Shown: piece after piece, positions 6,055-44,816 of the stretch
Position numbering within the stretch: position 1 is the stretch's first letter
Layout: each line of letters starts with the position of its first letter
Sequence record: OZ335964.1
Strand: one strand, 5' to 3'
Origin: a phage
DNA length: 64,000 bases
Notes under the pieces: model-generated
Seen by the model: the letters and a program-made list of their open reading frames with translations, nothing else
Told to the model about the DNA's origin: nothing
Database searches by the model: none
Translations under genes and position numbers: made by a program

Positions 6055-7239
6055 TTAAATGTCAAACAGGTCAGTCAGAGAAGCAACTTTTTCATATTGC
6101 AGCTTTGCAGCCGTGGTAATGTTCTCCAGTGGTTTGACGAAAGTCTTATTAAACAACAAAGGCCAGTCTAACCACTTTAACACCTCGCTTTCAATTTCTG
6201 GAGGAATACGAGTACCGGACAACCAACCAAAACAGATTTCTCCAAACGGATTTCGATCTTTAAGCGGTACGATCATAACCTTCTCGCCTTCACGAATCGG
6301 ATCTAGTCCGAATTTTCGAGCATTACGATTATAACACAATACACTCTTAACCGCATACGGACAACCCTTAATCGGATACCCGTTTGAATCGCTGTATTTC
6401 TGTAGGTTGTTTGCAGATGATACCGCAGCAACCTCAAGATAGTCAAGTTTTCTAAACTCTTGCTCAAAAATACCGTAGTATTCCTGTAGCGATTCTTCCC
6501 CTTCCTGCAACATACGGCGAATACATTCTTTCAGTGATTTCTGACATGCTTTAGGGGTGGAGCTACGTTGCGTTTCCAAGCCCATGATTTTTAGCTTAGG
6601 TTCAGCAAAGCGCGTTCCTTCCATATCCCAAACATTAAGAGCATAACGCTTTTTGCCAGTCCAGAATCCACCGATACCCGCAGATTTCAACGGAGGACCA
6701 GCAATTGCCTCACGGTCCATAAACATCAAGTGCTCATAGTTATTCATGTACTCGCATAACTCGCGATATCCCTTGTCGATAATAGGTTCCATCCGATGTT
6801 TACCGAAATTATCAAGGAAGTCAACAAGTTTTTCGGTATCGTCGAAACGGTCTTCCCCGCCAACCTTATCAACAACATTGTTAACCAGCACATAAACGGA
6901 GTCAGTATCACAATAACGAACATATGCAAAATCAGTTGTTCCGCAAAGCTCGTTTAAGTATTCGTTAATCTTACGCTCAATCCATCTAATAGCGACCTGT
7001 CCAAATAGCGTAATCGCACTAGCATTACGCAGATCGTATAGGCGGAAACGTGGATTCCCAAGCGCGCCATAAAGGCTATTAATCAATACCTTACGAGAAA
7101 GCTGGTTTGTATTACATAAAACCGATTCGTTTTGACAATAGGTTAATAACTGCTTTAACTCATCTACAGACATTGACTCGAATTGTTCTAGCTGTTCGTC
7201 GGTGAAGTCTGAACGAACATCAATATTTTTAATATCCAA
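6055..7239 (-). CDS. 43: DNA polymerase gp43, C-terminal fragment (polymerase domain; '43B')
   Basis: 394 aa; starts just before KVLINSLYG (motif A), contains YCDTDS (motif C) and WTGKKRYA; collinear with the C-terminal ~390 aa of recalled T4 gp43. Probable TTG start preceded by GGGGGTGA SD. Confidence 0.9.
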   Translation of the reverse strand: MDIKNIDVRSDFTDEQLEQFESMSVDELKQLLTYCQNESVLCNTNQLSRKVLINSLYGALGNPRFRLYDLRNASAITLFGQVAIRWIERKINEYLNELCGTTDFAYVRYCDTDSVYVLVNNVVDKVGGEDRFDDTEKLVDFLDNFGKHRMEPIIDKGYRELCEYMNNYEHLMFMDREAIAGPPLKSAGIGGFWTGKKRYALNVWDMEGTRFAEPKLKIMGLETQRSSTPKACQKSLKECIRRMLQEGEESLQEYYGIFEQEFRKLDYLEVAAVSSANNLQKYSDSNGYPIKGCPYAVKSVLCYNRNARKFGLDPIREGEKVMIVPLKDRNPFGEICFGWLSGTRIPPEIESEVLKWLDWPLLFNKTFVKPLENITTAAKLQYEKVASLTDLFDI

Positions 7240-7259
7240 TATTTCACCCCCATCAACGA

Positions 7260-7817
7260 TTAATGTATAATTGCATATTCGCCATGATATTGTACTATAT
7301 GCCTATTATACGCGTCAATAGCTTCTTCTTCCGAATCAAAGTATCCTATATGATGCGTCTCGTGGTTTACTGTTATTCGAACACGCCATTTATCATAACC
7401 TCTCACCTTTGAGATTCCTTTGTATTTTGAAGTCCTTCCCTCAATAGAAATTGATCCATTGCTATTAATCTGATTTTCGTTATGAGAAGCCGCCCTTAAA
7501 TTTTCAATTCTATTATTGGTTCGAACTCTATCAACATGATCTATTTGAGTTTTTCCATTAATAGGTCTTTCCTTGCTAGGACAATGACCATGAAACATAT
7601 GGTATATCACACGATGAATTTTTCTAGCTTTGCCATCTATCCAAACTTTGCAATATCCTTGCTTGTCAGGAAACCTCCCGATCACCTGACCTTTTTGTGC
7701 TTGACTGCTGGTAGATATCTTTCTAATCAATATTCCATCGTCATATTGAAATAATCTGTGATAGAGTTCATAAAGTCTCTTATCTTCGTCATTGTAATGA
7801 ATAACTTGATACATCAC
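7260..7817 (-). CDS. HNH-AP2 homing endonuclease inserted within gene 43
   Basis: HNH motif QIDHVDRVRTNNRIENLRAASHNENQ followed by AP2-like DNA-binding module YKGISKVRGYDKWRVRITVNHETHHIGYFDSEEEAIDAYN; start overlaps stop of 43 N-fragment. Confidence 0.8.
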   Translation of the reverse strand: MMYQVIHYNDEDKRLYELYHRLFQYDDGILIRKISTSSQAQKGQVIGRFPDKQGYCKVWIDGKARKIHRVIYHMFHGHCPSKERPINGKTQIDHVDRVRTNNRIENLRAASHNENQINSNGSISIEGRTSKYKGISKVRGYDKWRVRITVNHETHHIGYFDSEEEAIDAYNRHIVQYHGEYAIIH

Positions 7818-9331
7818 AACTCACCTCGCTTCTTCAATATTTCTTTTATTCGTTCAGCATTACGGTCACACGCCAACATCATGTTTTTGTACTGCTTACG
7901 CTGATCGAATACTTTCTTGATCTCAATCGGTATAATTCCATGAATATCTTTACGATACATCCAACCGTTAGGAGAACACGAGTATTCATCGCTAGGTCGT
8001 GGTGCTGTCTTATTAACATAATCATCAATTGGCGCGGCTTCAAACGATCCAGCGATTGTTTCCGGCGAAATGTTAACCTGTCGAATAATAGATGGGTACA
8101 GACTTGTTAAGTCAAAGCTCATCATCCAACGGTAAGCATTAGGTACTGGCTCTTTTACGAATGCGCCCGGATAAGTCTGCTTAGGCTGTATCTTATTTTC
8201 CGGTACTACTTTACCCTCAGCTTTCAGAGATCCGAAGATAATAGCATCCCATACTTTCATCGGGTTATAAACATGGTTAAATTTAATCTTTGCATAGAAA
8301 CATAGACTATACACAAGATCGATAAATCCACGCTTTTTATCAATCGCCAGCACACGATCAACGTCGCCGATGTTATAATCGATGTAAAGTTGATGGTTAT
8401 CATCACGCAATTTCTTTAACGGACCATCATAATCAACCTTACCGATTCCTGTCTCATATTCAGCAACATAATCTAATGCATATGTTGGTTGAGTCGTAAA
8501 GCTAAATTTCTTGTATAAGTCAATGTAGTCAAGGCTTTCGATCCCCATGATCGTAAATGCTTCACGCTCGTTGCCAAAATCATCCTGTGAGATTCGGGAT
8601 TTAATCTTACCGCACGGGCTTAGACGGTTAGCGGTTCTACTTCCGAACTTATTACTGATACGTTTAATGATATATGGAATATCGAATGTTTCTGTGTTCC
8701 AGCCAGTGAAACCAACGGGTCGGTTTTCCTCAAAGAATCGGATGTATTCTAACAGCAATTCATCTTCTGTATCATAGACGTTATAAACAACGCGCTCTAC
8801 AATATCAGGTCGAAGAATAGACTTTCTTGCTTCCCAGATTTCACCGTTTTTTCCTTTCAAATCAAACACAAAGAAACGATCATGTACGGAATCATAATGC
8901 GTAATTGCATCGATAGGATATTTCGCTTCTTCTGGTTTAGGAAATTCCGGTGCAGTGACCTCGATATCAACCCATGCTACACGGATTTTATTTCGGTCAT
9001 ATCGAATCTCGCCTTTATATGTATCGGACAGATAGGAGATGATAAAATCATCCATCCCTAGCGCCTCTTGCCCCATTTCCCCCATCTTTTTACGCCATTT
9101 GTTGGCCTCGTTCATAGATGGGAATTTTTTAGCAATGCAAGGCTTGCCATAGATATCTTTATAATTTGTAACCATACCAGGCGCGGCATGATGAAATAAA
9201 GTTGGCGTATATTCAACGTAACGCTCTTGTTCTTGTCCAGCATCATCAATATAACGCTCGTAGATCTTATCACCTACTCGCTCACATGACAGAAAATACA
9301 TAATATAAACTCCTTCACTTACGAAAGACAC
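7814..9331 (-). CDS. 43: DNA polymerase gp43, N-terminal fragment (3'-5' exonuclease/N-terminal domains; '43A')
   Basis: 505 aa; collinear with N-terminal ~500 aa of recalled T4 gp43 (ERYIDD...REVEY.P..F, FTGWN.E.FDIPYI, LDYIDLYKKFSFT.QP.Y.LDY, MSFDLTSLYPSIIRQVNISPETIAG). Confidence 0.9.
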   Translation of the reverse strand: MSFVSEGVYIMYFLSCERVGDKIYERYIDDAGQEQERYVEYTPTLFHHAAPGMVTNYKDIYGKPCIAKKFPSMNEANKWRKKMGEMGQEALGMDDFIISYLSDTYKGEIRYDRNKIRVAWVDIEVTAPEFPKPEEAKYPIDAITHYDSVHDRFFVFDLKGKNGEIWEARKSILRPDIVERVVYNVYDTEDELLLEYIRFFEENRPVGFTGWNTETFDIPYIIKRISNKFGSRTANRLSPCGKIKSRISQDDFGNEREAFTIMGIESLDYIDLYKKFSFTTQPTYALDYVAEYETGIGKVDYDGPLKKLRDDNHQLYIDYNIGDVDRVLAIDKKRGFIDLVYSLCFYAKIKFNHVYNPMKVWDAIIFGSLKAEGKVVPENKIQPKQTYPGAFVKEPVPNAYRWMMSFDLTSLYPSIIRQVNISPETIAGSFEAAPIDDYVNKTAPRPSDEYSCSPNGWMYRKDIHGIIPIEIKKVFDQRKQYKNMMLACDRNAERIKEILKKRGEL

Positions 9332-35420: not shown

Positions 35421-36221
35421 TTACACGCGAGCACCGTAGATCGTGCCTACTTTATCCCAGCGAGGGGCATTGCCAGTAACAGCCTTACCAGCTGCACCAG
35501 CACCACTGGCATTATAGTTTGATGTACGAACGGCAGCACCACCAGCCGCACCAACGTTACCACCAGCACCACTCATGTTATTACCATCAACGGTTACTTT
35601 ACCACCTGCGGCGGTTAACGATGCATTACCACCATTACCACGACCACCACGACCACCTGTACCGAAAGGACGACCACCACCGCCGCCTGCAACGCCAGCT
35701 AATGTGAAGTTATAGTCTATGGACCATCCGCCGCCGCCACCGCCACCGCCAGCAATTGCACCATTATTCGTAATACGTAAGCGTGTACCGATGCCATTAT
35801 TGATCGCTGTACCCCCGGCGGTCGCACGAACTAAAGCATCTCCAGATCCACCACTAGACCCAGATCCGTTACCGCCACGACCATATACAGTGACGCCGGA
35901 ATTAATGATAAGAGTTACATATTCATTAGTTAATGAGCTAGGGAAATCCAGACACGGAACACCAGCAGAATTAGAAACAAGATCCCCGGTAATAGTAACT
36001 ACTACCGGAGTAGACCCCTGTGATTTTAGATAGTTAATCAGAGTATCTTTATTGTAGTTGTGGTTTGCACCAATGCTATAATGAATCTCTTTAGAGCGTC
36101 CGACCATCGCCGACATATACGCCGGACGACCTAAGCGAACAGCTTGCATTGCGGCGCTCATCCACCGTTGACCAGTCTCAGCAACAGCCGATGATCCTAC
36201 CCAACCTGCTTTAATTGCCAT
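35421..36221 (-). CDS. glycine-rich protein resembling T2-type gp38 tail-fibre adhesin
   Basis: 266 aa; N-terminus WVGSSAVAETGQRWMSAAMQAVRLG...IGANHNYN...VVVTITGDLVS...VYGRGGNG then poly-Gly runs (AIAGGGGGGGGW, GGGGGRPFGTGGRGG), C-terminal WDKVGTIYGARV; matches my recollection of gp38 adhesin architecture. No alignment run. Confidence 0.5.
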   Translation of the reverse strand: MAIKAGWVGSSAVAETGQRWMSAAMQAVRLGRPAYMSAMVGRSKEIHYSIGANHNYNKDTLINYLKSQGSTPVVVTITGDLVSNSAGVPCLDFPSSLTNEYVTLIINSGVTVYGRGGNGSGSSGGSGDALVRATAGGTAINNGIGTRLRITNNGAIAGGGGGGGGWSIDYNFTLAGVAGGGGGRPFGTGGRGGRGNGGNASLTAAGGKVTVDGNNMSGAGGNVGAAGGAAVRTSNYNASGAGAAGKAVTGNAPRWDKVGTIYGARV

Positions 36222-36275
36222 AAGGTTTCCTCACAAGAAAAGCCCCATTTAAGGGGCATTGATTGATAATATTAC

Positions 36276-36497
36276 TTAGATGATCTCTGCTTCACCATTC
36301 AGGAAGAAAGACCATGTTTTGTTAGGATAGCGAAGCGCCCATGATTCAGCAGTTTTAACACCAGCTTCGAACAATTGACGGCTGGTCACTTTAGCCATAC
36401 CATCTTCGATGGCAACGTTTTCAATAATCATCGGGTACTTAGCTCCACGCATGAAACCGAAGCCAGCGGAAGATTTGATAATTTTAACAGTTGCCAT
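36276..36497 (-). CDS. hypothetical protein (73 aa)
   Basis: Downstream of promoter cassette at 36498-36575. Confidence 0.4.
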   Translation of the reverse strand: MATVKIIKSSAGFGFMRGAKYPMIIENVAIEDGMAKVTSRQLFEAGVKTAESWALRYPNKTWSFFLNGEAEII

Positions 36498-36575
36498 TTT
36501 TGATTCTCCTAGAAAGTGTATCTCGTTTCGATGGGTGTATTATGCAATAACACCGGATCGCTGTCAACACTTTCT
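36498..36575 (-). promoter_or_regulatory. early promoter-hairpin-leader cassette (PeSL-like)
   Basis: TTGACA - 17 nt - CATAAT within GGUGUuAU/AUaACACC hairpin - leader CAUCGAAACGAGAUACAC - AGGAGAATCAAA-ATG. Confidence 0.6.
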
Positions 36576-36585
36576 AAGAAAAATT

Positions 36586-36870
36586 TTAAATTAATCGAAT
36601 ATAGCCCAGAATTTCAGCACTTTTAGCCAGTCCTAAAACTTCCCATTCAAGGTCGCCGTAGTCATAATTTGCAACCATCAGTTCACCATTTTTCATGCAG
36701 CAATCATGAGAGAAAATTTGCCCCGCATAAACTACGATAGTGATAAACTTTCCTGATTCTGGCGGTGTGGAAGACAAAGCGACCATATGACCATTCAGCT
36801 TAGTCACCAGTGATGGAACAATAAAATTCGGGCTTACCTGAATACCGTTAAATTCGTTTGTGTCTTTCAT
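36586..36870 (-). CDS. hypothetical protein (94 aa)
   Basis: Co-oriented ORF. Confidence 0.4.
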   Translation of the reverse strand: MKDTNEFNGIQVSPNFIVPSLVTKLNGHMVALSSTPPESGKFITIVVYAGQIFSHDCCMKNGELMVANYDYGDLEWEVLGLAKSAEILGYIRLI

Positions 36871-37217
36871 GCCAGACCTCGCAAAACACTAATAGCATAA
36901 TCATGCTGGTTATTCATAATATCAATTGCATTGTGATAACGAGCTAAACCATCAAGAATAAATTCTTGTTTATCCTGTTTTAGCTTAGTATCACGCGCAG
37001 CCATAAGAGCATCAAGAACAGGTCCAAAGTGATTATCTAATTCATCTTCGGTTGCAATGTTTCCTATTGCCTCGTCGATCCGTGATTCTAATTCTTGCTT
37101 TTCGTTGATCACTTGCTGGGTATATTCCAACACATCAAGAATATCGCGGGTAACGTCGCCATGATAAGGTATTCCCGCATGAAGGTGATCAATTAGTCGT
37201 TGAATGTCAATGTTCAT
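36867..37217 (-). CDS. hypothetical protein (116 aa)
   Basis: Co-oriented ORF. Confidence 0.4.
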   Translation of the reverse strand: MNIDIQRLIDHLHAGIPYHGDVTRDILDVLEYTQQVINEKQELESRIDEAIGNIATEDELDNHFGPVLDALMAARDTKLKQDKQEFILDGLARYHNAIDIMNNQHDYAISVLRGLA

Positions 37218-37552
37218 TCGTAACCCTCCTCTGAAAGCACATCCCAGATCGTTGCGTCAAGGTGCATTAAATTCCACATAATAGAGTCATAACTACCGAA
37301 GCCAGAAGTAAAAATTACATCACACTGGCGATAGGTCTTATGAAAATCGGTGGCTGTCTCTGCATCAATCGGCATATCGTCACCGGAAAGCACCAGACAT
37401 TTAAGAATCATAACTCTGTTAGCCGTTGGCGCTTGCTTAGTCTTTTCAGCATATTTTTCGATGATCCGTTTTGCCTTTTCTTCTTTGATACGTCCAGAAT
37501 AGACACGGTTTCGGTATTGATTCATAATAACTTCAATTACATCATTTTGCAT
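37214..37552 (-). CDS. hypothetical protein (112 aa)
   Basis: Co-oriented ORF. Confidence 0.4.
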   Translation of the reverse strand: MQNDVIEVIMNQYRNRVYSGRIKEEKAKRIIEKYAEKTKQAPTANRVMILKCLVLSGDDMPIDAETATDFHKTYRQCDVIFTSGFGSYDSIMWNLMHLDATIWDVLSEEGYE

Positions 37553-37751
37553 TCTTCACGGTCTCCATAATTGTTTTGTAAGCCAGTTTAAGATGATCAC
37601 CGAAAAACTTTGCAGTGTTACCCTTCGGATCGCGAAGCATGGTTTCTACGATCTCATCGGCAGTAACAATTTCACCTTTCTTTGCTGCGTGTTCTACCAT
37701 ATACTTCAAAGTTTCTTCGGAAGCAAGTGCTGCGGCTACTGGATTAATCAT
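37542..37751 (-). CDS. hypothetical protein (69 aa)
   Basis: Downstream of promoter at 37752-37812. Confidence 0.4.
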   Translation of the reverse strand: MINPVAAALASEETLKYMVEHAAKKGEIVTADEIVETMLRDPKGNTAKFFGDHLKLAYKTIMETVKNAK

Positions 37752-37812
37752 TTTGGTTCTCCTTTGTTGTCGATGTGTGCATTATGCTATACCCTATTCT
37801 TGTTGTCAACAC
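37752..37812 (-). promoter_or_regulatory. sigma70-type early promoter with conserved leader
   Basis: TTGACA - 17 nt - CATAAT (GCAUaAUGC mini-hairpin) - leader - AGGAGAACCAAA-ATG. Confidence 0.6.
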
Positions 37813-37814
37813 CT

Positions 37815-37846
37815 AAAAACGAAAAAAGCCACCCTTTCGGATGGCT
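37815..37846 (-). terminator. rho-independent terminator (possibly bidirectional)
   Basis: AGCCAUCC-GAAA-GGGUGGCU then UUUUUUCGUUUUU on minus strand; plus strand also has hairpin + TTTTG. Confidence 0.65.
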
Positions 37847-37855
37847 TTTGATTAA

Positions 37856-39994
37856 TTAAGGATTTCGGCCAGGGTAATGCTTAAATCGACCGTAACCAGT
37901 TTCAATGCTCATATCTCGTTGACGCACAATCGCCCAATAACCGTTGCAGGAATCTTGAAGATATAGATCCTTACCTTTTAGGAACTCATTAAAAATAGTG
38001 ATCTGCCAATCATAATAGACCGCATCAGCAAGACTACCCATCCAACCGTGCGGATCTTCCATCAGTTCGACAAGTTCATCAATTACCCAATATGGACAAG
38101 GGCTAAATTTACCCTTACTAAAATCGCTGAACATAGTAACGATCTTGACTTCCGGTCGAGGCTGATCGGGAATATCTGGACGTTTGTTAACTACGACTTG
38201 CACATATTTTGTGTAGCCTACAATTTCACCTTCATCTAAGTTAGTGTTATTGTTTTTGTCGGCAAATGCAACAAATTTGTAAACACCAGAATCATTTAAT
38301 GTTGCATTAGCTTTACGATATACCGGAACACTGGAATCTGCAATAGGTAATTTAATACCACTTTTACTAAATTCATAGGTCGGCACATAGTTAGATGGCG
38401 GTTTAATCATGGTTGCTTCCAGCACCAACGGATCACCCTCAGTAATTTGCACCGGATGCGGACCGTCAAATTCCATATTAGGAATTACTTCAACTTTATA
38501 GGTTGCACGTCCTGCAATATCATATCCGGTATGCGCACTATGAGGATCTCGGCTAGGACTATCGCGATATTCATGCGACCAGATACCATTATGTTCTTTA
38601 TCCGCCGCATCAGTGATCTTATATTCTTTCGTTTCAATCGGCAATTCTGTTACAAGAACATCGTTTTTCAAAATTGCTAACGAACGAGTTTGAGTCGGAT
38701 CATTACTTGCTGGAGGTTCTGGATCAACAATTTTAATAACAATAGGTTCCCCAACCTCAATACCGCTATAATCATGCTCGACGTCATAGATATCTAACAT
38801 ACGGCGATCATAAAATAACGGGCGAGAAGTTGGAGTTCTCTGCGGATCATCATCACGCGCAGGAGCTACCAACAATTGCAGGGCTACACTATTATCATAT
38901 TGCAATTTCTCAAGACTAATACGGTCATAACCAGGATCACCATATTTCTTGCTTTGTAATTGCGTACCACCTAACATCCACGTAAAGTAGACATTATTTG
39001 TTAATAAACCATAATGTCGGTTCCATGAATTATCAACAGGGGAAACTGGCATATCAATACTAACAGAAGACCCAGAAGGATAACGAAATTCAATAGCAGA
39101 AAAATCTCGGCTAAAAAATTCGTTTTCCTTGACGTTAACGCGGAATCGATGGCGCTGACCTTCCAGATACGATTCACTACTACCAGGACCATTTTCAACC
39201 TTATAGGAACGAATACAAGCGACATAATCACCTGCATCTGCTTCGGTAGCATGTTTCGTCACATATAAAGTTTTATTCTTTGATTCATAAACCAAAGTAC
39301 CATCGCCACGTTCCAGACGATAACGAACTATGGTATGTTCAGCGTCATTTGGGGCATCGTCTTCTACAGTATAATAGGCAGGTGCATATTTTTGTACATT
39401 GAATACAGCTAAATTTTCTCGAATTGTTGCTGTAAACGGATATACAAATTTAACATCACCTGTTTCGTCGCTTAATTCCATTCGATAAAGACCGGAAAAT
39501 TCAGGCCATGCGAATTTTGCAATTTTAAATTCACGATGGTCCAATCCCAAATCACCATCTACGGAATCAACTAGACCATTATTATAATACAAGTCAACAG
39601 AGATATTAGCAGGAATATTACTACGAAAAACAATTTTCGCTTTAAGTTCATCACCAATATTAAATGATGTCGGAGGATATACATGTTCAACATATGGATT
39701 ATCAAATAACTTAAATGTAAAGTTTTCCGTGCCAATATCGATAGAATCACCACTAAATGATGTGTCGCCTAGCGCATAACCTCGAACGTTTACAGACCAT
39801 CCGGTAACATCGTCTTCTTTAACGGAATCCAATGTAAATGTCGGAGAGGCACTTGTTGCTATAATCTGGTCATTTTTCTTCCAGACATAACCTTTTTTCG
39901 GTTTTGTTGAATCAGGGCTTTCATCAACAATACAGCAGCTAAAATCGTGCGGCATCCAAATCATATTATTGACCGTGGTGTTTACTACTGCCAT
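37856..39994 (-). CDS. large beta-rich protein with Ig-like motifs (712 aa)
   Basis: At least two Ig-domain-type D-x-G-x-Y motifs (EADAGDYVACIRSY; LNDSGVYKFVAF); rich in N/D/Y/T; no catalytic motif recognised. Confidence 0.5.
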   Translation of the reverse strand: MAVVNTTVNNMIWMPHDFSCCIVDESPDSTKPKKGYVWKKNDQIIATSASPTFTLDSVKEDDVTGWSVNVRGYALGDTSFSGDSIDIGTENFTFKLFDNPYVEHVYPPTSFNIGDELKAKIVFRSNIPANISVDLYYNNGLVDSVDGDLGLDHREFKIAKFAWPEFSGLYRMELSDETGDVKFVYPFTATIRENLAVFNVQKYAPAYYTVEDDAPNDAEHTIVRYRLERGDGTLVYESKNKTLYVTKHATEADAGDYVACIRSYKVENGPGSSESYLEGQRHRFRVNVKENEFFSRDFSAIEFRYPSGSSVSIDMPVSPVDNSWNRHYGLLTNNVYFTWMLGGTQLQSKKYGDPGYDRISLEKLQYDNSVALQLLVAPARDDDPQRTPTSRPLFYDRRMLDIYDVEHDYSGIEVGEPIVIKIVDPEPPASNDPTQTRSLAILKNDVLVTELPIETKEYKITDAADKEHNGIWSHEYRDSPSRDPHSAHTGYDIAGRATYKVEVIPNMEFDGPHPVQITEGDPLVLEATMIKPPSNYVPTYEFSKSGIKLPIADSSVPVYRKANATLNDSGVYKFVAFADKNNNTNLDEGEIVGYTKYVQVVVNKRPDIPDQPRPEVKIVTMFSDFSKGKFSPCPYWVIDELVELMEDPHGWMGSLADAVYYDWQITIFNEFLKGKDLYLQDSCNGYWAIVRQRDMSIETGYGRFKHYPGRNP

Positions 39995-40761: not shown

Positions 40762-41358
40762 TTAGTGGGTAGATCCATCAATAAAATGTTTACGACAAAC
40801 AGAAATATATTTATCTTCCGCACCAATTTCGATTTGAGCACCATCGCGAATAACATTACCATCTTTATCTACGCGAAGGACCATAGTTGCTTTCTTTCCA
40901 CAATGACAAATACCCTTCATTTCGACCAGTTTATCAGCAAATGCCATCAATGCCGCAGATCCTTCAAATAGATTGCCCTGAAAGTCGGTGCGAAGGCCAT
41001 AGCACAGTACAGGGATATTTGCATCATCAACAAGCGCACACAAGCCTAAAACATGCTCTTTAGTCATAAATTGGGCTTCATCTACAAATACAGCATCAGG
41101 ACGCCATCGATCCGATCTACGCTTACCTAGTGATTCACGATAAACTAAGTCGAAAAGATCATCCGATTTAGTGAACGTAATAGCCGGAGCACTTAGACCA
41201 ATTCGGGAAACAACTTCACTATCTGAATCACGATTATCAATCGCTGGTTTAAGAATTAATACTCGCATATCACGTTCGGTATAGTTATAAGCACTTTGTA
41301 ACAGGGAAGTTGATTTGCCAGCGTTCATAGATGCATAGTAGAAATATAGTTGCGCCAT
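40762..41358 (-). CDS. tk: thymidine kinase
   Basis: 198 aa; MAQLYFYYASMNAGKSTSLLQSAYNY... and ...PVLCYGLRTDFQG...ISVCRKHF near-identical in pattern to E. coli/T4 Tdk. Confidence 0.95.
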   Translation of the reverse strand: MAQLYFYYASMNAGKSTSLLQSAYNYTERDMRVLILKPAIDNRDSDSEVVSRIGLSAPAITFTKSDDLFDLVYRESLGKRRSDRWRPDAVFVDEAQFMTKEHVLGLCALVDDANIPVLCYGLRTDFQGNLFEGSAALMAFADKLVEMKGICHCGKKATMVLRVDKDGNVIRDGAQIEIGAEDKYISVCRKHFIDGSTH

Positions 41359-41651
41359 TAATTAATCTCCAAAAATCCAGCAAGACCTAAACCAACATAA
41401 ACCCAGATGCAAAGGAAAAAGAAGCAAACACCCATAGCAAAGATAAATCCGCGTAGTGTCTTTGGATAACCTACCCAATATTCCCGACCATCTTCTAACC
41501 GGATCAGTTTATTGCCTTGAGAGTCCATGTCAATCACAACATGCTTATTTCGAGATTGCAATAGATATTGTTTTACAATCTCTACACCCGCCATAATAAC
41601 AATAACGAAATTAAAAGTCCACATAACAAGGTTAATGATAGTCTCAAGCAT
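41358..41651 (-). CDS. small membrane protein (97 aa)
   Basis: Hydrophobic helices at both ends. Confidence 0.4.
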   Translation of the reverse strand: MLETIINLVMWTFNFVIVIMAGVEIVKQYLLQSRNKHVVIDMDSQGNKLIRLEDGREYWVGYPKTLRGFIFAMGVCFFFLCIWVYVGLGLAGFLEIN

Positions 41652-41886
41652 TTTCTATCACCTCCACCCAATCAGGCGTTTCCTGAAATACTCCTTCGCC
41701 TTCGTGGTGGATGCATCCTTTATTGCTACAATACATCCACCAATCCCACATTCCCCACGGTAAACGCTGCATATCGTCGTTACAGCAAGTGAAGATGATA
41801 GGCCAACCACATCTAACACATCGGCAGTTTTCTTTCATGTGAGCGGTATTAGGCTTCTTCATAGATGACTCCAATATAATCGACAT
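41644..41886 (-). CDS. Cys/Trp-rich hypothetical protein (80 aa)
   Basis: CRCVRCGW...FTCCND...YCSNKGCIHHEG. Confidence 0.35.
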   Translation of the reverse strand: MSIILESSMKKPNTAHMKENCRCVRCGWPIIFTCCNDDMQRLPWGMWDWWMYCSNKGCIHHEGEGVFQETPDWVEVIENA

Positions 41887-42089
41887 TTACATTTAGGGCA
41901 ATGCGGTTCTTTAATATAATACCCGTCTGTCTTTGGAACACTAACAGGAGCGGTTTTTATATTGTATTCAGTGAAACAACGAAAACAAGTTACGTTTTCT
42001 ACAGACTGACGTTTCACCCAATCACCGGAATAGAGATCATTTTTATTTGTCATATTCAACCACCACAATGTTAATGTCTGGAGTAGCAA
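41859..42089 (-). CDS. zinc-ribbon hypothetical protein (76 aa)
   Basis: CFRCF...CPKCKC motifs. Confidence 0.35.
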   Translation of the reverse strand: MLLQTLTLWWLNMTNKNDLYSGDWVKRQSVENVTCFRCFTEYNIKTAPVSVPKTDGYYIKEPHCPKCKCRLYWSHL

Positions 42090-42498
42090 TATTAATGATC
42101 TCTTCTACACATTCCCACTCAAGGCCACCGATACCGCAACCGATTTTAGGAATATAGAAAGGCTGTATAGCACCTTCAAAAACATCATTGATAGTCTCAA
42201 ATCCTTTCAGGATAGCACCATATTCAGCATTTGGACCCGGTCGGAATTGGGTATAGAGATTCACCCCGCACCAGTTATAACCATTAACTTGATGCGTCCA
42301 GACACTAAACCCACCCAGCTTTTCTACCTTACCGCGAGAAGTTTGCTTGTCAATTTCTAACGCTTGCGGGAACTCTTTCGCGATATCCGCAGCAATACCA
42401 GCGCCCATAGTATGAAAACAATTACAACCATGAATTAAATGACCGTTTCCTTGTTTAAACAGGGCGATGAGATCGCCCTTTACAGTATCAATAATCAT
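42043..42498 (-). CDS. macro domain protein (TARG1/OARD1-like)
   Basis: 151 aa; GDLIALFKQGNGHLIHGCNCFHTMGAGIAADIAKEFP and C-terminal FYIPKIGCGIGGLEWECVEEIINI match the pattern of TARG1-type macrodomains as recalled. Confidence 0.55.
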   Translation of the reverse strand: MIIDTVKGDLIALFKQGNGHLIHGCNCFHTMGAGIAADIAKEFPQALEIDKQTSRGKVEKLGGFSVWTHQVNGYNWCGVNLYTQFRPGPNAEYGAILKGFETINDVFEGAIQPFYIPKIGCGIGGLEWECVEEIINIATPDINIVVVEYDK

Positions 42499-42513
42499 AA
42501 TATAAACCTCTCA

Positions 42514-42873
42514 TTAGTCACGGGAAGACAACCCAGCCATAAAACGGCTTAAAAGCGTGTCACGATAAGCAAAGCATAATTGCTTATCAGGGGCAGTATC
42601 ACACAGGTTGCGTTTTGTTTTAGCAAAGCTGGCAATACTCAGATCCCACGCTCGATTTTTTCGTTTTTCATCTCGACCTTGTTTGTATGCCTCGTCAAGT
42701 TCAAGTGCGATAAAATCGCTACACATGTTATCATCATCACAGAAGGTTTTAATGATCTTTTTGTTGATCTCAAATCCTTTGTATTCGACCTTTGGATAAG
42801 GGCGCTCATTACTAGCAAGCGCACCAGCCGAGAACATCATAGCAATCATAGCAATTATTGTCAACTTTTTCAT
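42514..42873 (-). CDS. secreted/periplasmic protein (119 aa)
   Basis: N-terminal signal peptide MKKLTIIAMIAMMFSAGALA. Confidence 0.45.
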   Translation of the reverse strand: MKKLTIIAMIAMMFSAGALASNERPYPKVEYKGFEINKKIIKTFCDDDNMCSDFIALELDEAYKQGRDEKRKNRAWDLSIASFAKTKRNLCDTAPDKQLCFAYRDTLLSRFMAGLSSRD

Positions 42874-42880
42874 ATATTCC

Positions 42881-43471
42881 TCAATAGCGTTTAGTTTTAA
42901 GAATGCCTTTACTCTTTAGATGGTTAGCCTTTTTTAGTACGTCATCAGCATAACCCAATCCGGCTTTATAGTTCCATCCAGCATTGTAAGAAGCTAGCGC
43001 GAGTCGGATATTACCGTTTCGAACATCCAGCCAGTATGCTAACTCATCCATCGCGTAGAATGCAGAAACCTCGCGATTCATGATAAATTTGATAGTCTGG
43101 CGATCACTCATTTTAACACCGCGCTTTGCATTTTTCGCTTTCACCGTTTTAAGGTAATTTTGAAATAATCCATAAGCATGATGATTTTTCTTTGGTGCTA
43201 AGTTTGCACCCGCGCTTGATTCTTGCCATGCTATACCCGCCAGGATGTGGCCTAAACCCTTTCCGTCATAGCGAATATTCGGATGGTCATTTTTCAACTT
43301 ACCGCTTTTCTCGAATTGTTCGCCATATTGATAGGCGAAATGTAAATTATCTAGTTGGTGTGCTGTAAAGTTGTCTATCGGCGCTTTTTTGATCGGTGCG
43401 CTAGTCGATGCGTGTGTAGCACCAACGGCTAGTGACAGACTCAATACTATCGCTTTTAGAACTTTTAACAT
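42881..43471 (-). CDS. secreted lytic transglycosylase (SLT-domain) protein
   Basis: Signal peptide LKAIVLSLSLAVGATHA; SLT motifs ILAGIAWQESS (catalytic Glu-Ser), YGLFQ, ASYNAGW. Confidence 0.55.
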   Translation of the reverse strand: MLKVLKAIVLSLSLAVGATHASTSAPIKKAPIDNFTAHQLDNLHFAYQYGEQFEKSGKLKNDHPNIRYDGKGLGHILAGIAWQESSAGANLAPKKNHHAYGLFQNYLKTVKAKNAKRGVKMSDRQTIKFIMNREVSAFYAMDELAYWLDVRNGNIRLALASYNAGWNYKAGLGYADDVLKKANHLKSKGILKTKRY

Positions 43472-43556
43472 TAATTTCTCCTGTTTGGCTTAACTTTCTG
43501 ATTCCATAATATAGCCCTATCACCAGAAAGTCAAGCATTATTTTAACCAATCTCCA

Positions 43557-43980: not shown

Positions 43981-44319
43981 TTATTCTCCTTTCTTAAACA
44001 AATTGCGAAGCCAGTATACAAACGGGATTTCTTTAAACTTGAACTTGTCAATAGTTAATTCTTTAGTAGCAAGATGAATACCATAAGCATCATGTGTCAC
44101 GATATGCCATTTTCTATAGCCCAAATGTGAACAACCGTCTGAATCTAGGTTAATAAGAGTTTCTCGCTCACTAGGATTATTTTTCCACAATTTTGTAACC
44201 GGGTCGCACATAATTCGACCTAGCGTACCATGAATAATCTCACAACGGTAAAGTTTTCCAGCAGTGAGATAGGCGCACCCGTCATAGTCGGTATAAACAA
44301 ACACTTCTTTAACACTCAT
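43981..44319 (-). CDS. paralog family C protein (start at MSVKEV)
   Basis: ...YTDYDGCAYLTAGKLYRC...DSDGCSHLGYRKWHIV; preceded by promoter cassette and SD. Confidence 0.45.
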   Translation of the reverse strand: MSVKEVFVYTDYDGCAYLTAGKLYRCEIIHGTLGRIMCDPVTKLWKNNPSERETLINLDSDGCSHLGYRKWHIVTHDAYGIHLATKELTIDKFKFKEIPFVYWLRNLFKKGE

Positions 44320-44380
44320 TTTAATACTCCTTTGTTGTTTCGATGGGGGTATATTACTACCCCCGATCATGTGTGTCAAC
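44320..44380 (-). promoter_or_regulatory. early promoter-hairpin-leader cassette (PeSL-like)
   Basis: TTGACA - 9 nt - GGGGGUAguaauauaCCCCC hairpin - leader CAUCGAAACAACA - AAGGAGTATTAAA-ATG. Confidence 0.6.
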
Positions 44381-44640
44381 TACTTTTTCAAGAATTTTTT
44401 AATTGCGTTCCAAAGACCTTTATTCTCAGGTTGTTTTGGTTCTTCGATCAGCGTCCATGTTCGACCGTCTAAGTGTGCACAATTTTTAAGGCAAATAAAA
44501 ATCTGGTGTCCCTTATCATCACGGATATAACCACTATTCGCAAATCTTTCATGTGGTGTATATTCATACAGTGTATTTGGTGTAATATACTTGCGGTTAC
44601 TATAAGGTGTCATCACATACATCATGGTACTAACTCCCAA
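44380..44640 (-). CDS. paralog family C protein (86 aa)
   Basis: ...NTLYEYTPHERFANSGYIRDDKGHQIFICLKNCAHLDGRTWTLI. Confidence 0.45.
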   Translation of the reverse strand: MGVSTMMYVMTPYSNRKYITPNTLYEYTPHERFANSGYIRDDKGHQIFICLKNCAHLDGRTWTLIEEPKQPENKGLWNAIKKFLKK

Positions 44641-44816
44641 CGATCACCGCGAAGATGAGAACATCCACCATCAAGAAGGATCGTAATACGAAACCCCGCA
44701 TCATCTTCAATATACCCGATAGTCGGTGGATGTTCGTCGTCTCGTGCCGGGGTAAAATCATACATCTTTCCGGGCGTAATATCTTGTCCTTTATTGCTAT
44801 TGGTATAAACTTGCAT
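44622..44816 (-). CDS. paralog family C protein (64 aa)
   Basis: ...GKMYDFTPARDDEHPPTIGYIEDDAGFRITILLDGGCSHLRGDRWELV. Confidence 0.45.
   Translation of the reverse strand: MQVYTNSNKGQDITPGKMYDFTPARDDEHPPTIGYIEDDAGFRITILLDGGCSHLRGDRWELVP

What the first reader, a model, noticed from the sequence alone, without database searches (positions are those of the whole stretch)
42043..42498. TARG1-like macro domain protein in the tk-regB interval
The sequence pattern (HGCNCFHTMGAGIA...; ...PKIGCGIGGLEWECV...) is that of TARG1/OARD1-type macrodomains, which remove ADP-ribose from proteins or nucleic acids. T4-like phages encode ADP-ribosyltransferases, and hosts use ADP-ribosylation-based defences such as DarT. 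A phage macrodomain could therefore tune phage-driven ADP-ribosylation or reverse a host defence modification.
Basis: partly seen in the sequence, partly recalled or inferred. Interest (0 to 1): 0.55.

Follow-up and report, generated by a model that had tools for sequence, protein, structure and literature searches.

The report
Phage Tk.4/AdfM macrodomain, anti-DarT2 enzyme
This is the already-annotated tk.4 gene of an RB49/JSE-like (Krischvirus) coliphage, a small ADP-ribose-removing "macrodomain" enzyme whose T4 counterpart was recently shown to protect the phage from the bacterial DarTG2 defence, so the finding is real but ordinary.

Summary
The ORF exists exactly as described: 42043..42498, minus strand, 151 aa, with both quoted motifs. 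It is a macrodomain. It passes the Pfam Macro cut-off, and the AlphaFold2 model (pLDDT 97.3) matches TARG1, DarG, Poa1p, BT1257 and SCO6735.

The window is a Krischvirus (JSE/RB49-like) genome. The same gene is annotated in JSE RefSeq as "tk.4, phosphatase, A1pp motif". It is the positional ortholog of T4 tk.4: 44% identity, same tk…tk.4-vs-vs.1-regB order.

A November 2025 preprint showed that T4 tk.4 is the single gene T4 needs to resist DarTG2, and named it AdfM. It is untested for this phage.

One correction is needed. The TARG1 catalytic dyad is absent: Lys84 is Gln84 here and Asp125 is Gly124. The Gln is kept in 103 of 104 homologs and aligns with Gln85 of SCO6735, a lysine-less enzyme that cleaves thymidine-linked ADP-ribose from DNA and is dead as Q85A. 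The protein also lacks DarG's DarT-binding domain.

Verdict: already known, low-to-moderate interest. The Gln-type chemistry of the Tk.4 clade has not been studied biochemically.

The parts
42043..42498 (-). tk.4 / adfM-like gene: 151-aa single-domain macrodomain protein (stop codon included)
   Evidence: ORF. Pfam Macro. PHROG 335. 44% identity, E=1e-44, to T4 Tk.4. AF2 pLDDT 97.3. Foldseek hits to TARG1 and DarG.
42507..42512 (-). Shine-Dalgarno GAGAGG, 8 nt upstream of the ATG. It directly follows the vs stop codon (42514-42516), which suggests co-transcription and translational coupling with vs.
   Evidence: Read directly from the sequence.
42391..42408 (-). Codons for M31-G-A-G-I-A36, the first diphosphate/ribose-binding loop of the macro fold
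   Evidence: M31, G34 and A36 are invariant, and G32, A33 and I35 are at least 90% conserved, in 104 homologs. They align with MGAGIA of TARG1 and MGKGIA of DarG.
42421..42432 (-). Codons for H23-G24-C25-N26. N26 is the conserved macrodomain Asn, and H23 and N26 correspond to SCO6735 His24 and Asn27.
   Evidence: N26 is 104/104 and H23 101/104 conserved. hhalign register to SCO6735 'AHVCN'. Mutagenesis of these residues in SCO6735 and of the conserved Asn in PhiKZ AdfM.
42247..42249 (-). Codon CAA for Gln84, at the position of the catalytic Lys of TARG1 (K84) and DarG (K80) and of the essential Gln85 of SCO6735
   Evidence: Codon read. Q in 103/104 homologs. The register is agreed by hmmsearch, MAFFT and hhalign. 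Q85A abolishes SCO6735 activity.
42124..42150 (-). Codons for P117-K-I-G-C-G-I-G-G125, the second phosphate-binding loop. G122 corresponds to SCO6735 Gly128. G124 occupies the position of TARG1 Asp125.
   Evidence: P117, G120 and G122 are invariant, and position 124 is only Ala or Gly in the family. Alignments.

Best explanation
The gene encodes a stand-alone macrodomain ADP-ribosyl glycohydrolase. It is the Krischvirus ortholog of T4 Tk.4 (AdfM, anti-DarT factor Macrodomain). It is made from the tk-regB transcription unit, which is early in T4; here that timing is inferred. It most likely binds ADP-ribose attached to thymidine in single-stranded phage DNA, the lesion written by the host toxin DarT2 at TNTC motifs. 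It then hydrolyses the N-glycosidic link, so replication and transcription of the phage genome can continue. In effect it is an orphan antitoxin enzyme: the macro half of DarG without the toxin-binding half. Catalysis is probably lysine-independent. Gln84, held in place by Asn26, positions the distal ribose and a water molecule, as proposed for SCO6735. This differs from the TARG1 Lys/Asp chemistry. What is shown here: the macro fold, the conserved ADP-ribose pocket, the Gln-for-Lys substitution, and orthology and synteny with T4 tk.4. What is shown elsewhere: T4 lacking tk.4 becomes DarTG2-sensitive; SCO6735 (Gln type) and PhiKZ AdfM (Lys type) remove DarT2-made ADP-ribose from DNA. What is inferred: that this Krischvirus protein has the same substrate and role.
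For: Macro fold and class. DarG-model hits restricted to the macro part: PADLOC DarG E=5.7e-14 and NCBIfam DarG E=1.2e-12. Orthology: 44% identity over the full length to T4 Tk.4; the same gene order in JSE and T4; neighbouring genes diverge to a similar degree, with tk 54%, regB 41% and vs 27%. Function of the ortholog: tk.4 was the single significant hit in a T4 transposon library on a DarTG2 host, and a clean knockout is sensitised. T4 lacking AdfA and AdfN stays DarTG2-resistant, which implied a further factor. Active site: N26 is invariant, and H23, T83 and Q84 are each conserved in at least 101 of 104 homologs (Q84 in 103), and G122 is invariant. These map onto SCO6735 His24, Asn27, Gln85 and Gly128, whose mutation reduces or abolishes dT-ADPr hydrolysis. 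A phage macrodomain removing DarT2-made ADP-ribose in vitro has been shown for PhiKZ AdfM.
Against: Nothing has been tested on this protein or on any Krischvirus; no paper links the genus to DarTG. The T4 evidence is a preprint and is genetic only, and no biochemistry exists for a Gln-type phage enzyme. Identity to T4 AdfM is only 44%, and only 26% to the biochemically proven PhiKZ AdfM, which keeps the DarG-type Lys. SCO6735's DNA activity partly depends on Lys89 in a mobile loop that is five residues shorter here. Macrodomains of this class are promiscuous (protein Glu/Asp-ADPr, O-acetyl-ADP-ribose, Appr-1''-p), so DNA may not be the only or the main substrate. A bacterial homolog with 44% identity is stand-alone with no DarT neighbour, so the family is not intrinsically tied to DarT.
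Confidence: 0.75

Rival explanations
1. It tunes or reverses the phage's own protein or RNA ADP-ribosylation. T4-like phages carry Alt, ModA and ModB, and the macrodomain would erase their marks on RNA polymerase, ribosomal proteins or RNAylated targets.
For: A modB gene is annotated in the closely related phage JSE a short distance from the region matching this window, so writer and putative eraser coexist in the genome. SCO6735-type enzymes can also act on protein substrates.
Against: Alt and Mod enzymes modify arginine (established knowledge). TARG1-class macrodomains are known for Glu/Asp esters and thymidine-linked ADP-ribose, while Arg-ADPr is removed by ARH/DraG-type enzymes. In the T4 library, tk.4 showed a fitness effect specifically with DarTG2. 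Homologs occur in 2783 phage records across many genera. I did not check whether those phages carry alt or mod genes.
Confidence: 0.06
2. It is a small-molecule enzyme, as its database label 'phosphatase' implies: ADP-ribose-1''-phosphate phosphatase (Poa1p-like) or O-acetyl-ADP-ribose deacetylase. It would clean up NAD-derived metabolites during infection.
For: Annotations read 'phosphatase; contains A1pp phosphatase motif', 'Poa1p-like' and 'O-acetyl-ADP-ribose deacetylase'. Poa1p is among the top structural and sequence matches (TM 0.70).
Against: These labels are transferred from the domain name, not from experiments. No pathway producing Appr-1''-p is known in T4-like infection; T4 RNA repair leaves no 2'-phosphate (established knowledge). 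The T4 ortholog's only detected phenotype is DarTG2 sensitivity. Such side activities are common to many macrodomains and would not explain selection in more than 2700 phage genomes.
Confidence: 0.07
3. It counters a different or broader set of ADP-ribosylating defences, for example RNA-targeting ADP-ribosyltransferases or DarT-like toxins with other specificities. Alternatively it acts mainly by binding and inhibiting the toxin rather than by hydrolysis.
For: Catalytically dead SCO6735, DarG and TARG1 still inhibit DarT by interaction. The Krischvirus protein is only 44% identical to T4 AdfM and is closer (68-69%) to rV5-like phage macrodomains, so its specificity could have shifted.
Against: The active-site residues are almost invariant across 104 homologs, which argues for selection on catalysis. 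There is no DarT-binding C-terminal domain. No data point to another target.
Confidence: 0.1

Closest known systems
T4 Tk.4 = AdfM (anti-DarT factor Macrodomain), bioRxiv 10.1101/2025.11.20.689424
   Same: Full-length homolog (44% identity, E=1e-44). Same position between tk.3 and vs. Same size (151 vs 155 aa). Same HGCNCFHTMG, NLYTQF..PGPN and P(K/R)IG.GIG motifs, including Gln at the catalytic position.
   Different: 56% of residues differ. The Krischvirus version is closer to rV5-like phage macrodomains (68-69%) than to T4. The anti-DarTG2 role has been shown only for T4, and only genetically.
Streptomyces coelicolor SCO6735 (PDB 5e3b) and Bacteroides BT1257 (2fg1/2afc): lysine-less ALC1/TARG1-class macrodomains
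   Same: Gln at the TARG1-K84 position and no Asp at the TARG1-D125 position. His, Asn and Gly equivalents are conserved. These are the best profile hits in the PDB. They are stand-alone proteins without a toxin-binding domain. SCO6735 cleaves dT-ADPr on DNA and protects against DarT.
   Different: Only 22-25% identity. The mobile loop after the Gln is five residues shorter here and lacks SCO6735's Lys89 and Lys94. SCO6735 Val25 is Gly24 here. These are cellular, DNA-damage-regulated proteins, not phage proteins.
DarG (DarG2) antitoxin macrodomain (PDB 5m3i, 5m31/5m3e, 7omu)
   Same: Same fold (TM 0.78-0.80). Best single-sequence PDB hit (E=6.9e-8). Hits to the PADLOC and NCBIfam DarG models over the macro part. 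Presumably the same substrate.
   Different: No C-terminal DarT-binding domain and no adjacent darT. The NCBIfam score of 47.8 bits is far below the 250-bit cut-off. The catalytic Lys80 is replaced by Gln.
PhiKZ gp104 AdfM (Cell Rep 2026, PMC13309987)
   Same: A phage-encoded single macrodomain of similar size, and an orphan-antitoxin type of counter-defence against DarT2. Removal of DarT2-made ADP-ribose from DNA was shown in vitro.
   Different: Only 26% identical. It is clearly DarG-derived (PADLOC E=4.4e-39 against 5.7e-14) and keeps the Lys ('FPTKDNW'). It is imported into the phage nucleus, which T4-like phages lack.
Human TARG1/OARD1 (PDB 4j5r)
   Same: Closest solved structure (TM 0.78/0.84, 28-29% identity). 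Same KGD, MGAGIA and PRIGCG motifs. TARG1 is cited as also acting on DarT-made DNA adducts (reference list).
   Different: The catalytic dyad Lys84/Asp125 is absent, replaced by Gln84 and Gly124.

Membership tests
Macro domain superfamily (Pfam PF01661) | Profile match above the curated gathering score | tested here: met
   27.9 bits against a cut-off of 22, E=2.4e-6, covering residues 22-135 and the whole 118-position model.
Macro domain superfamily (Pfam PF01661) | Three-layer alpha/beta/alpha macro fold | tested here: met
   AF2 model with pLDDT 97.3 and pTM 0.92. 190 PDB matches with E<=0.001; all but a set of designed serine hydrolases among the 50 best rows listed are macrodomains.
Macro domain superfamily (Pfam PF01661) | ADP-ribose pocket motifs: N-terminal Asp (KGD), conserved Asn, Gly-rich loops 1 and 2 | tested here: met
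   D9 is Asp in 81 and Asn in 18 of 104 homologs. N26, G34, A36, G120 and G122 are invariant. They align with the same motifs of TARG1, DarG and SCO6735.
TARG1/OARD1 (terminal ADP-ribose protein glycohydrolase) | Closest structural and sequence class (ALC1/TARG1-like) | tested here: met
   Top Foldseek hits are 4j5r, 4j5s and 4j5q, TM 0.78-0.84. Profile hit E=1e-14.
TARG1/OARD1 (terminal ADP-ribose protein glycohydrolase) | Catalytic Lys84 | tested here: not met
   It aligns with Gln84. The family has Q in 103/104 members.
TARG1/OARD1 (terminal ADP-ribose protein glycohydrolase) | Catalytic Asp125 | tested here: not met
   It aligns with Gly124. The family has only Ala (54) or Gly (50) at this position.
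DarG antitoxin (NCBIfam NF048014 / PADLOC PDLC02990) | Full-length match above the equivalog cut-off, including the C-terminal DarT-binding domain | tested here: not met
   47.8 bits against a cut-off of 250. Only profile positions 2-141 of 338 are matched, and the protein ends at residue 151.
DarG antitoxin (NCBIfam NF048014 / PADLOC PDLC02990) | Encoded next to a darT toxin gene | tested here: not met
   The neighbours are the tk.3-position zinc-binding ORF and vs.
DarG antitoxin (NCBIfam NF048014 / PADLOC PDLC02990) | Catalytic Lys (Taq DarG K80) | tested here: not met
   hhalign puts Gln84 opposite the first Lys of Mtb DarG 'PTKKHW'.
SCO6735/BT1257-type lysine-less macrodomain hydrolases | Gln at the catalytic position, plus His24, Asn27 and Gly128 equivalents | tested here: met
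   Q84, H23, N26 and G122. The register is agreed by hmmsearch and hhalign. The residue numbering was checked against the 20-residue tag offset of 5e3b.
SCO6735/BT1257-type lysine-less macrodomain hydrolases | Extended mobile loop carrying Lys89 and Lys94 | tested here: not met
   There is a five-residue deletion relative to SCO6735 immediately after QF(R)PG. The loop length resembles DarG and TARG1.
SCO6735/BT1257-type lysine-less macrodomain hydrolases | Hydrolysis of thymidine-linked ADP-ribose on ssDNA | not testable with these tools
   Needs an enzyme assay.
T4 Tk.4 / AdfM | Full-length sequence homology to T4 Tk.4 | tested here: met
   44% identity, 65% positives, E=1e-44, residues 1-150 against 1-152.
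T4 Tk.4 / AdfM | Conserved genomic position (tk, tk.1-3, tk.4, vs, vs.1, regB) | tested here: met
   The neighbours are orthologous to those of T4.
T4 Tk.4 / AdfM | Required for phage growth on DarTG2-expressing hosts | not testable with these tools
   Shown only for T4. No report for Krischvirus.
Poa1p / ADP-ribose-1''-phosphate phosphatase (source of the 'phosphatase' label) | Structural and sequence similarity to Poa1p | tested here: inconclusive
   TM 0.70 with rmsd 4.7 A, and profile E=2.6e-12. This is weaker than the matches to TARG1 and DarG. Activity was not tested, and the label is inherited from the domain name.

The most novel reading that the evidence does not exclude
The Tk.4 clade, which makes up most of the homologs found in 2783 phage records, would be a mechanistically distinct, lysine-independent class of phage anti-DarT enzymes. 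It combines the SCO6735-type catalytic Gln with the short DarG/TARG1-type mobile loop, and it would have evolved separately from the DarG-derived, Lys-type AdfM of jumbo phages. If so, phages recruited two different macrodomain chemistries for the same counter-defence. The Gln type might have a wider substrate range, such as protein Glu/Asp-ADPr or RNA adducts.
Probability: 0.4. Interest if true: 0.4.

Novelty: already known. Interest (0 to 1): 0.25.

Why it matters
The result assigns a probable counter-defence role (anti-DarTG2) to a gene present in essentially all RB49/JSE-like coliphages. Several such phages are being considered for therapy, so the gene helps predict host range on DarTG2-carrying E. 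coli. The one point that goes slightly beyond the literature is the active site. This clade, including T4 AdfM itself, lacks the catalytic lysine of DarG and TARG1 and carries the SCO6735-type glutamine. This gives concrete mutants to test and warns against using 'Lys/Asp present?' as a filter when screening phage macrodomains for activity.

Tried and rejected
1. TARG1 membership was rejected because both dyad residues are absent.

2. DarG membership was rejected. The score is far below the equivalog cut-off, there is no C-terminal domain, no darT neighbour and no Lys.

3. The single-sequence phmmer alignment to BT1257 and the 7-sequence MAFFT alignment put the BT1257/SCO6735 'NMIGQH' strand out of register. 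I did not rely on them for those two proteins. I used the profile alignment and hhalign, which agree with each other and with the published five-residue loop difference.

4. I looked for a darT gene next to a bacterial member of the family (Pelagimonas phthalicica, 44% identity). There is none, and the gene is stand-alone among housekeeping genes.

5. I looked at the rV5-like phage context (HdK5). Only hypothetical genes flank it, which is uninformative.

6. A literature search for Krischvirus plus DarTG found 0 papers. A search for 'AdfM' was swamped by unrelated hits but surfaced the PhiKZ paper.

7. The promoter and terminator scan gives only consensus matches. A strong sigma-70-like site lies inside vs, and nothing firm could be concluded about timing.

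8. I did not use the search of protein representatives, the metagenome or genome scans, or a second structure prediction. The answer did not depend on them.

Full report
**1. Observation.** The ORF listing returns an ATG-started ORF at 42043..42498 on the minus strand, 151 aa. It contains the two quoted strings at residues 23-36 (HGCNCFHTMGAGIA) and 117-131 (PKIGCGIGGLEWECV). On the minus strand a GAGAGG Shine-Dalgarno (42512..42507) lies 8 nt before the ATG and directly follows the stop codon of the upstream gene.

The gene sits in a long minus-strand array:
- thymidine kinase, 40762..41358;
- three small ORFs, two of which are Pfam 'phage zinc-binding' domains;
- the macrodomain ORF;
- vs, 42514..42873;
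- vs.1, 42881..43471, which has an SLT transglycosylase domain;
- regB.

'tk-regB interval' is therefore correct.

**2. What the window is.** The 456 bases match 59 phage records, 58 of them at 95% identity or more. These are overwhelmingly Escherichia and Shigella phages (Krischvirus; JSE is the annotated reference examined). In JSE RefSeq the same gene is already annotated 'tk.4, phosphatase; contains A1pp phosphatase motif'. Other records call it 'macro domain protein', 'Poa1p-like' or 'O-acetyl-ADP-ribose deacetylase'. At the protein level, homologs occur in 2783 of 50,697 phage records from many genera.

**3. Is it a macrodomain, and of which kind?**
- Pfam Macro scores above its gathering threshold (27.9 against 22 bits, E=2.4e-6, whole model covered). 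PHROG 335 gives E=2.8e-61.
- Single-sequence search of the PDB finds M. tuberculosis DarG macrodomain (5m3i, 6.9e-8), BT1257, SCO6735 (5e3b) and TARG1/OARD1 (7e-6).
- A profile of 104 homologs raises these to 1.7e-16 (BT1257), 4.9e-15 (SCO6735), 1e-14 (TARG1) and 3.7e-13 (DarG).
- An AlphaFold2 model built on that alignment is very confident (pLDDT 97.3, pTM 0.92). Its best solved neighbours are TARG1 (TM 0.78/0.84), Poa1p, the DarG macrodomains (TM 0.78-0.80), BT1257 and SCO6735. Viral MacroD-type domains rank lower.

**4. Catalytic residues.** It is not there. Three independent alignments were used: hmmsearch profile, MAFFT with T4, PhiKZ, DarG and TARG1, and hhalign.
- All three place Gln84 (codon CAA, 42249..42247) opposite TARG1 Lys84 and the DarG lysine.
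- Searches place Gly124 opposite TARG1 Asp125.
- Across 104 homologs, position 84 is Gln in 103, and position 124 is only Ala or Gly.

This is not evidence of inactivity.
- The profile and hhalign alignments put the strand N80-L-Y-T-Q84 on SCO6735 N-M-I-G-Q. That Gln is Gln85, checked against the 20-residue tag offset of chain 5e3b.
- SCO6735 lacks both TARG1 residues, yet it hydrolyses thymidine-linked ADP-ribose on DNA and protects against DarT. Q85A abolishes its activity. Asn27, His24 and Gly128 also matter (PMC9411070).
- The equivalents here are N26 (invariant), H23 (101/104) and G122 (invariant).
- One difference remains: the loop after the Gln is five residues shorter than in SCO6735. 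That is the loop the paper describes as longer in SCO6735 and as carrying DNA-binding lysines.

**5. Relation to T4 and the literature.**
- The protein is 44% identical over its full length to T4 Tk.4 (E=1e-44), and T4 Tk.4 occupies the same slot between tk.3 and vs.
- The flanking genes are diverged to a similar degree: tk 54%, regB 41%, vs 27%. This is the positional ortholog, not a recent insertion.
- T4 Tk.4 has the same HGCNCFHTMG, NLYTQF and IG.GIG motifs.
- A preprint of November 2025 (10.1101/2025.11.20.689424) reports that tk.4 was the single significant hit in a T4 transposon library grown on a DarTG2 host. A clean knockout becomes DarTG2-sensitive. The authors note that the predicted structure resembles the Mtb DarG macrodomain, and they named the protein AdfM.
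- This fits an earlier report that T4 lacking AdfA and AdfN remained DarTG2-resistant, implying another factor (PMC11825919).
- Independently, a macrodomain of the jumbo phage PhiKZ (gp104) was also named AdfM. It was shown in vitro to remove DarT2-made ADP-ribose from DNA and to rescue cells from DarT2 (PMC13309987).

**6. Two kinds of phage AdfM.** PhiKZ gp104 is only 26% identical to the window protein. It matches the DarG models far better (PADLOC 4.4e-39, against 5.7e-14 for the window protein and 1.3e-9 for T4). It also keeps the DarG-type lysine ('FPTKDNW'). The T4/Krischvirus clade is a different, Gln-type lineage.

None of the phage proteins reaches the NCBIfam DarG equivalog cut-off. 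The window protein scores 47.8 bits against 250, and only the macro half of the model is matched. There is no DarT-binding domain and no darT neighbour. A bacterial member of the clade (Pelagimonas, 44% identity) is a stand-alone chromosomal gene without darT, like SCO6735.

**7. Most likely mechanism.** The protein would be an early-expressed orphan 'antitoxin-like' hydrolase. It would remove ADP-ribose from thymidines of phage ssDNA modified by DarT2, using a lysine-independent, Gln/Asn-assisted water attack.
- Shown here: fold, pocket, catalytic-site composition, orthology.
- Shown elsewhere: the T4 phenotype, and the SCO6735 and PhiKZ biochemistry.
- Inferred: the substrate and role for this particular protein.

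I put this at 0.75. The rivals are each at or below about 0.1:
- erasing the phage's own Alt/Mod marks, which are arginine-linked and so the wrong chemistry for this class; modB is present in JSE;
- metabolite clean-up, as the 'phosphatase' label suggests; that label is inherited from the domain name;
- a different or broader ADP-ribosylation defence, or toxin binding rather than hydrolysis.

**8. Novelty and score.** The gene, its macrodomain nature and its likely function are all in public records or in the recent literature. No Krischvirus has been tested. Nobody appears to have examined the Gln-type chemistry of the Tk.4 clade biochemically. That is a modest refinement rather than a discovery. 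Rating: already known, interest 0.25.

**9. Seen in passing.**
- Three tandem paralogous small ORFs between regB and nrdC.11 have no family assignment.
- The family-B DNA polymerase gene is split by an HNH endonuclease ORF.
- In JSE, nrdD is interrupted by a homing endonuclease gene.
- Strong sigma-70-like promoter matches lie upstream of vs.1 and inside vs.
- The Krischvirus macrodomain is closer to those of rV5-like phages (68-69%) than to other T4-like genera.

Noticed in passing
window 43984-44816 (minus strand): ORFs 43984..44319, 44383..44640, 44625..44816: Three tandem small ORFs (112, 86 and 64 aa) between regB and nrdC.11 are paralogs of one another (33-42% identity). They share a motif Y.TP...GYI.DD.G..I.I.L..GC(S/A)HL.G..W.L and have no Pfam match. 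They sit where T4 has vs.3-vs.5.
   Followed up: partly
window 6058-9331 (minus strand): The family-B DNA polymerase gene (gene 43) is in two ORFs: 7817-9331 (exonuclease plus N-terminal polymerase part) and 6058-7239 (C-terminal polymerase part). An HNH_3 endonuclease ORF (7263-7817) separates them. JSE likewise annotates two 'DNA polymerase' CDSs. I did not examine whether this is an intron, an intein-like arrangement or a true split gene.
   Followed up: partly
JSE record 35715-38337 (locus L004 26016-28638); the corresponding window position was not determined: In the JSE annotation the anaerobic ribonucleotide reductase gene nrdD is annotated as two CDSs with a homing endonuclease gene between them. 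This was not checked in the window itself.
   Followed up: no
window 41647-41886 and 41862-42053 (minus strand): The two small ORFs just downstream of the macrodomain gene (tk.2 and tk.3 positions) match Pfam 'Phage zinc binding domain' families PF23895 (9e-34) and PF23903 (1e-23). The second overlaps the 3' end of tk.4 by 11 nt.
   Followed up: partly
window 42836-42864 and 43506-43534 (minus strand): There are strong sigma-70-type promoter matches. TTGACA-17-TATGAT with an extended-10 TG (11/12) lies inside the first codons of vs. TTGACT-17-TATTAT lies in the regB/vs.1 gap. Either could drive early transcription of vs and tk.4. These are consensus matches only.
   Followed up: no
window 42043-42498 compared with phage records (HdK5 MK373780 locus L007; protein P0006 from Bas59): The Krischvirus macrodomain is 68-69% identical to that of rV5-like Vequintavirus phages, but only 44-52% identical to those of other T4-like genera (Tequatrovirus, Dhakavirus, Mosigvirus). 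This hints at gene exchange between unrelated coliphage lineages.
   Followed up: partly
window 42884-43471 (minus strand): vs.1 carries an SLT lytic transglycosylase domain (PF01464, 7.7e-6) behind a hydrophobic, signal-peptide-like N-terminus. The adjacent vs product also starts with a signal-like segment.
   Followed up: no
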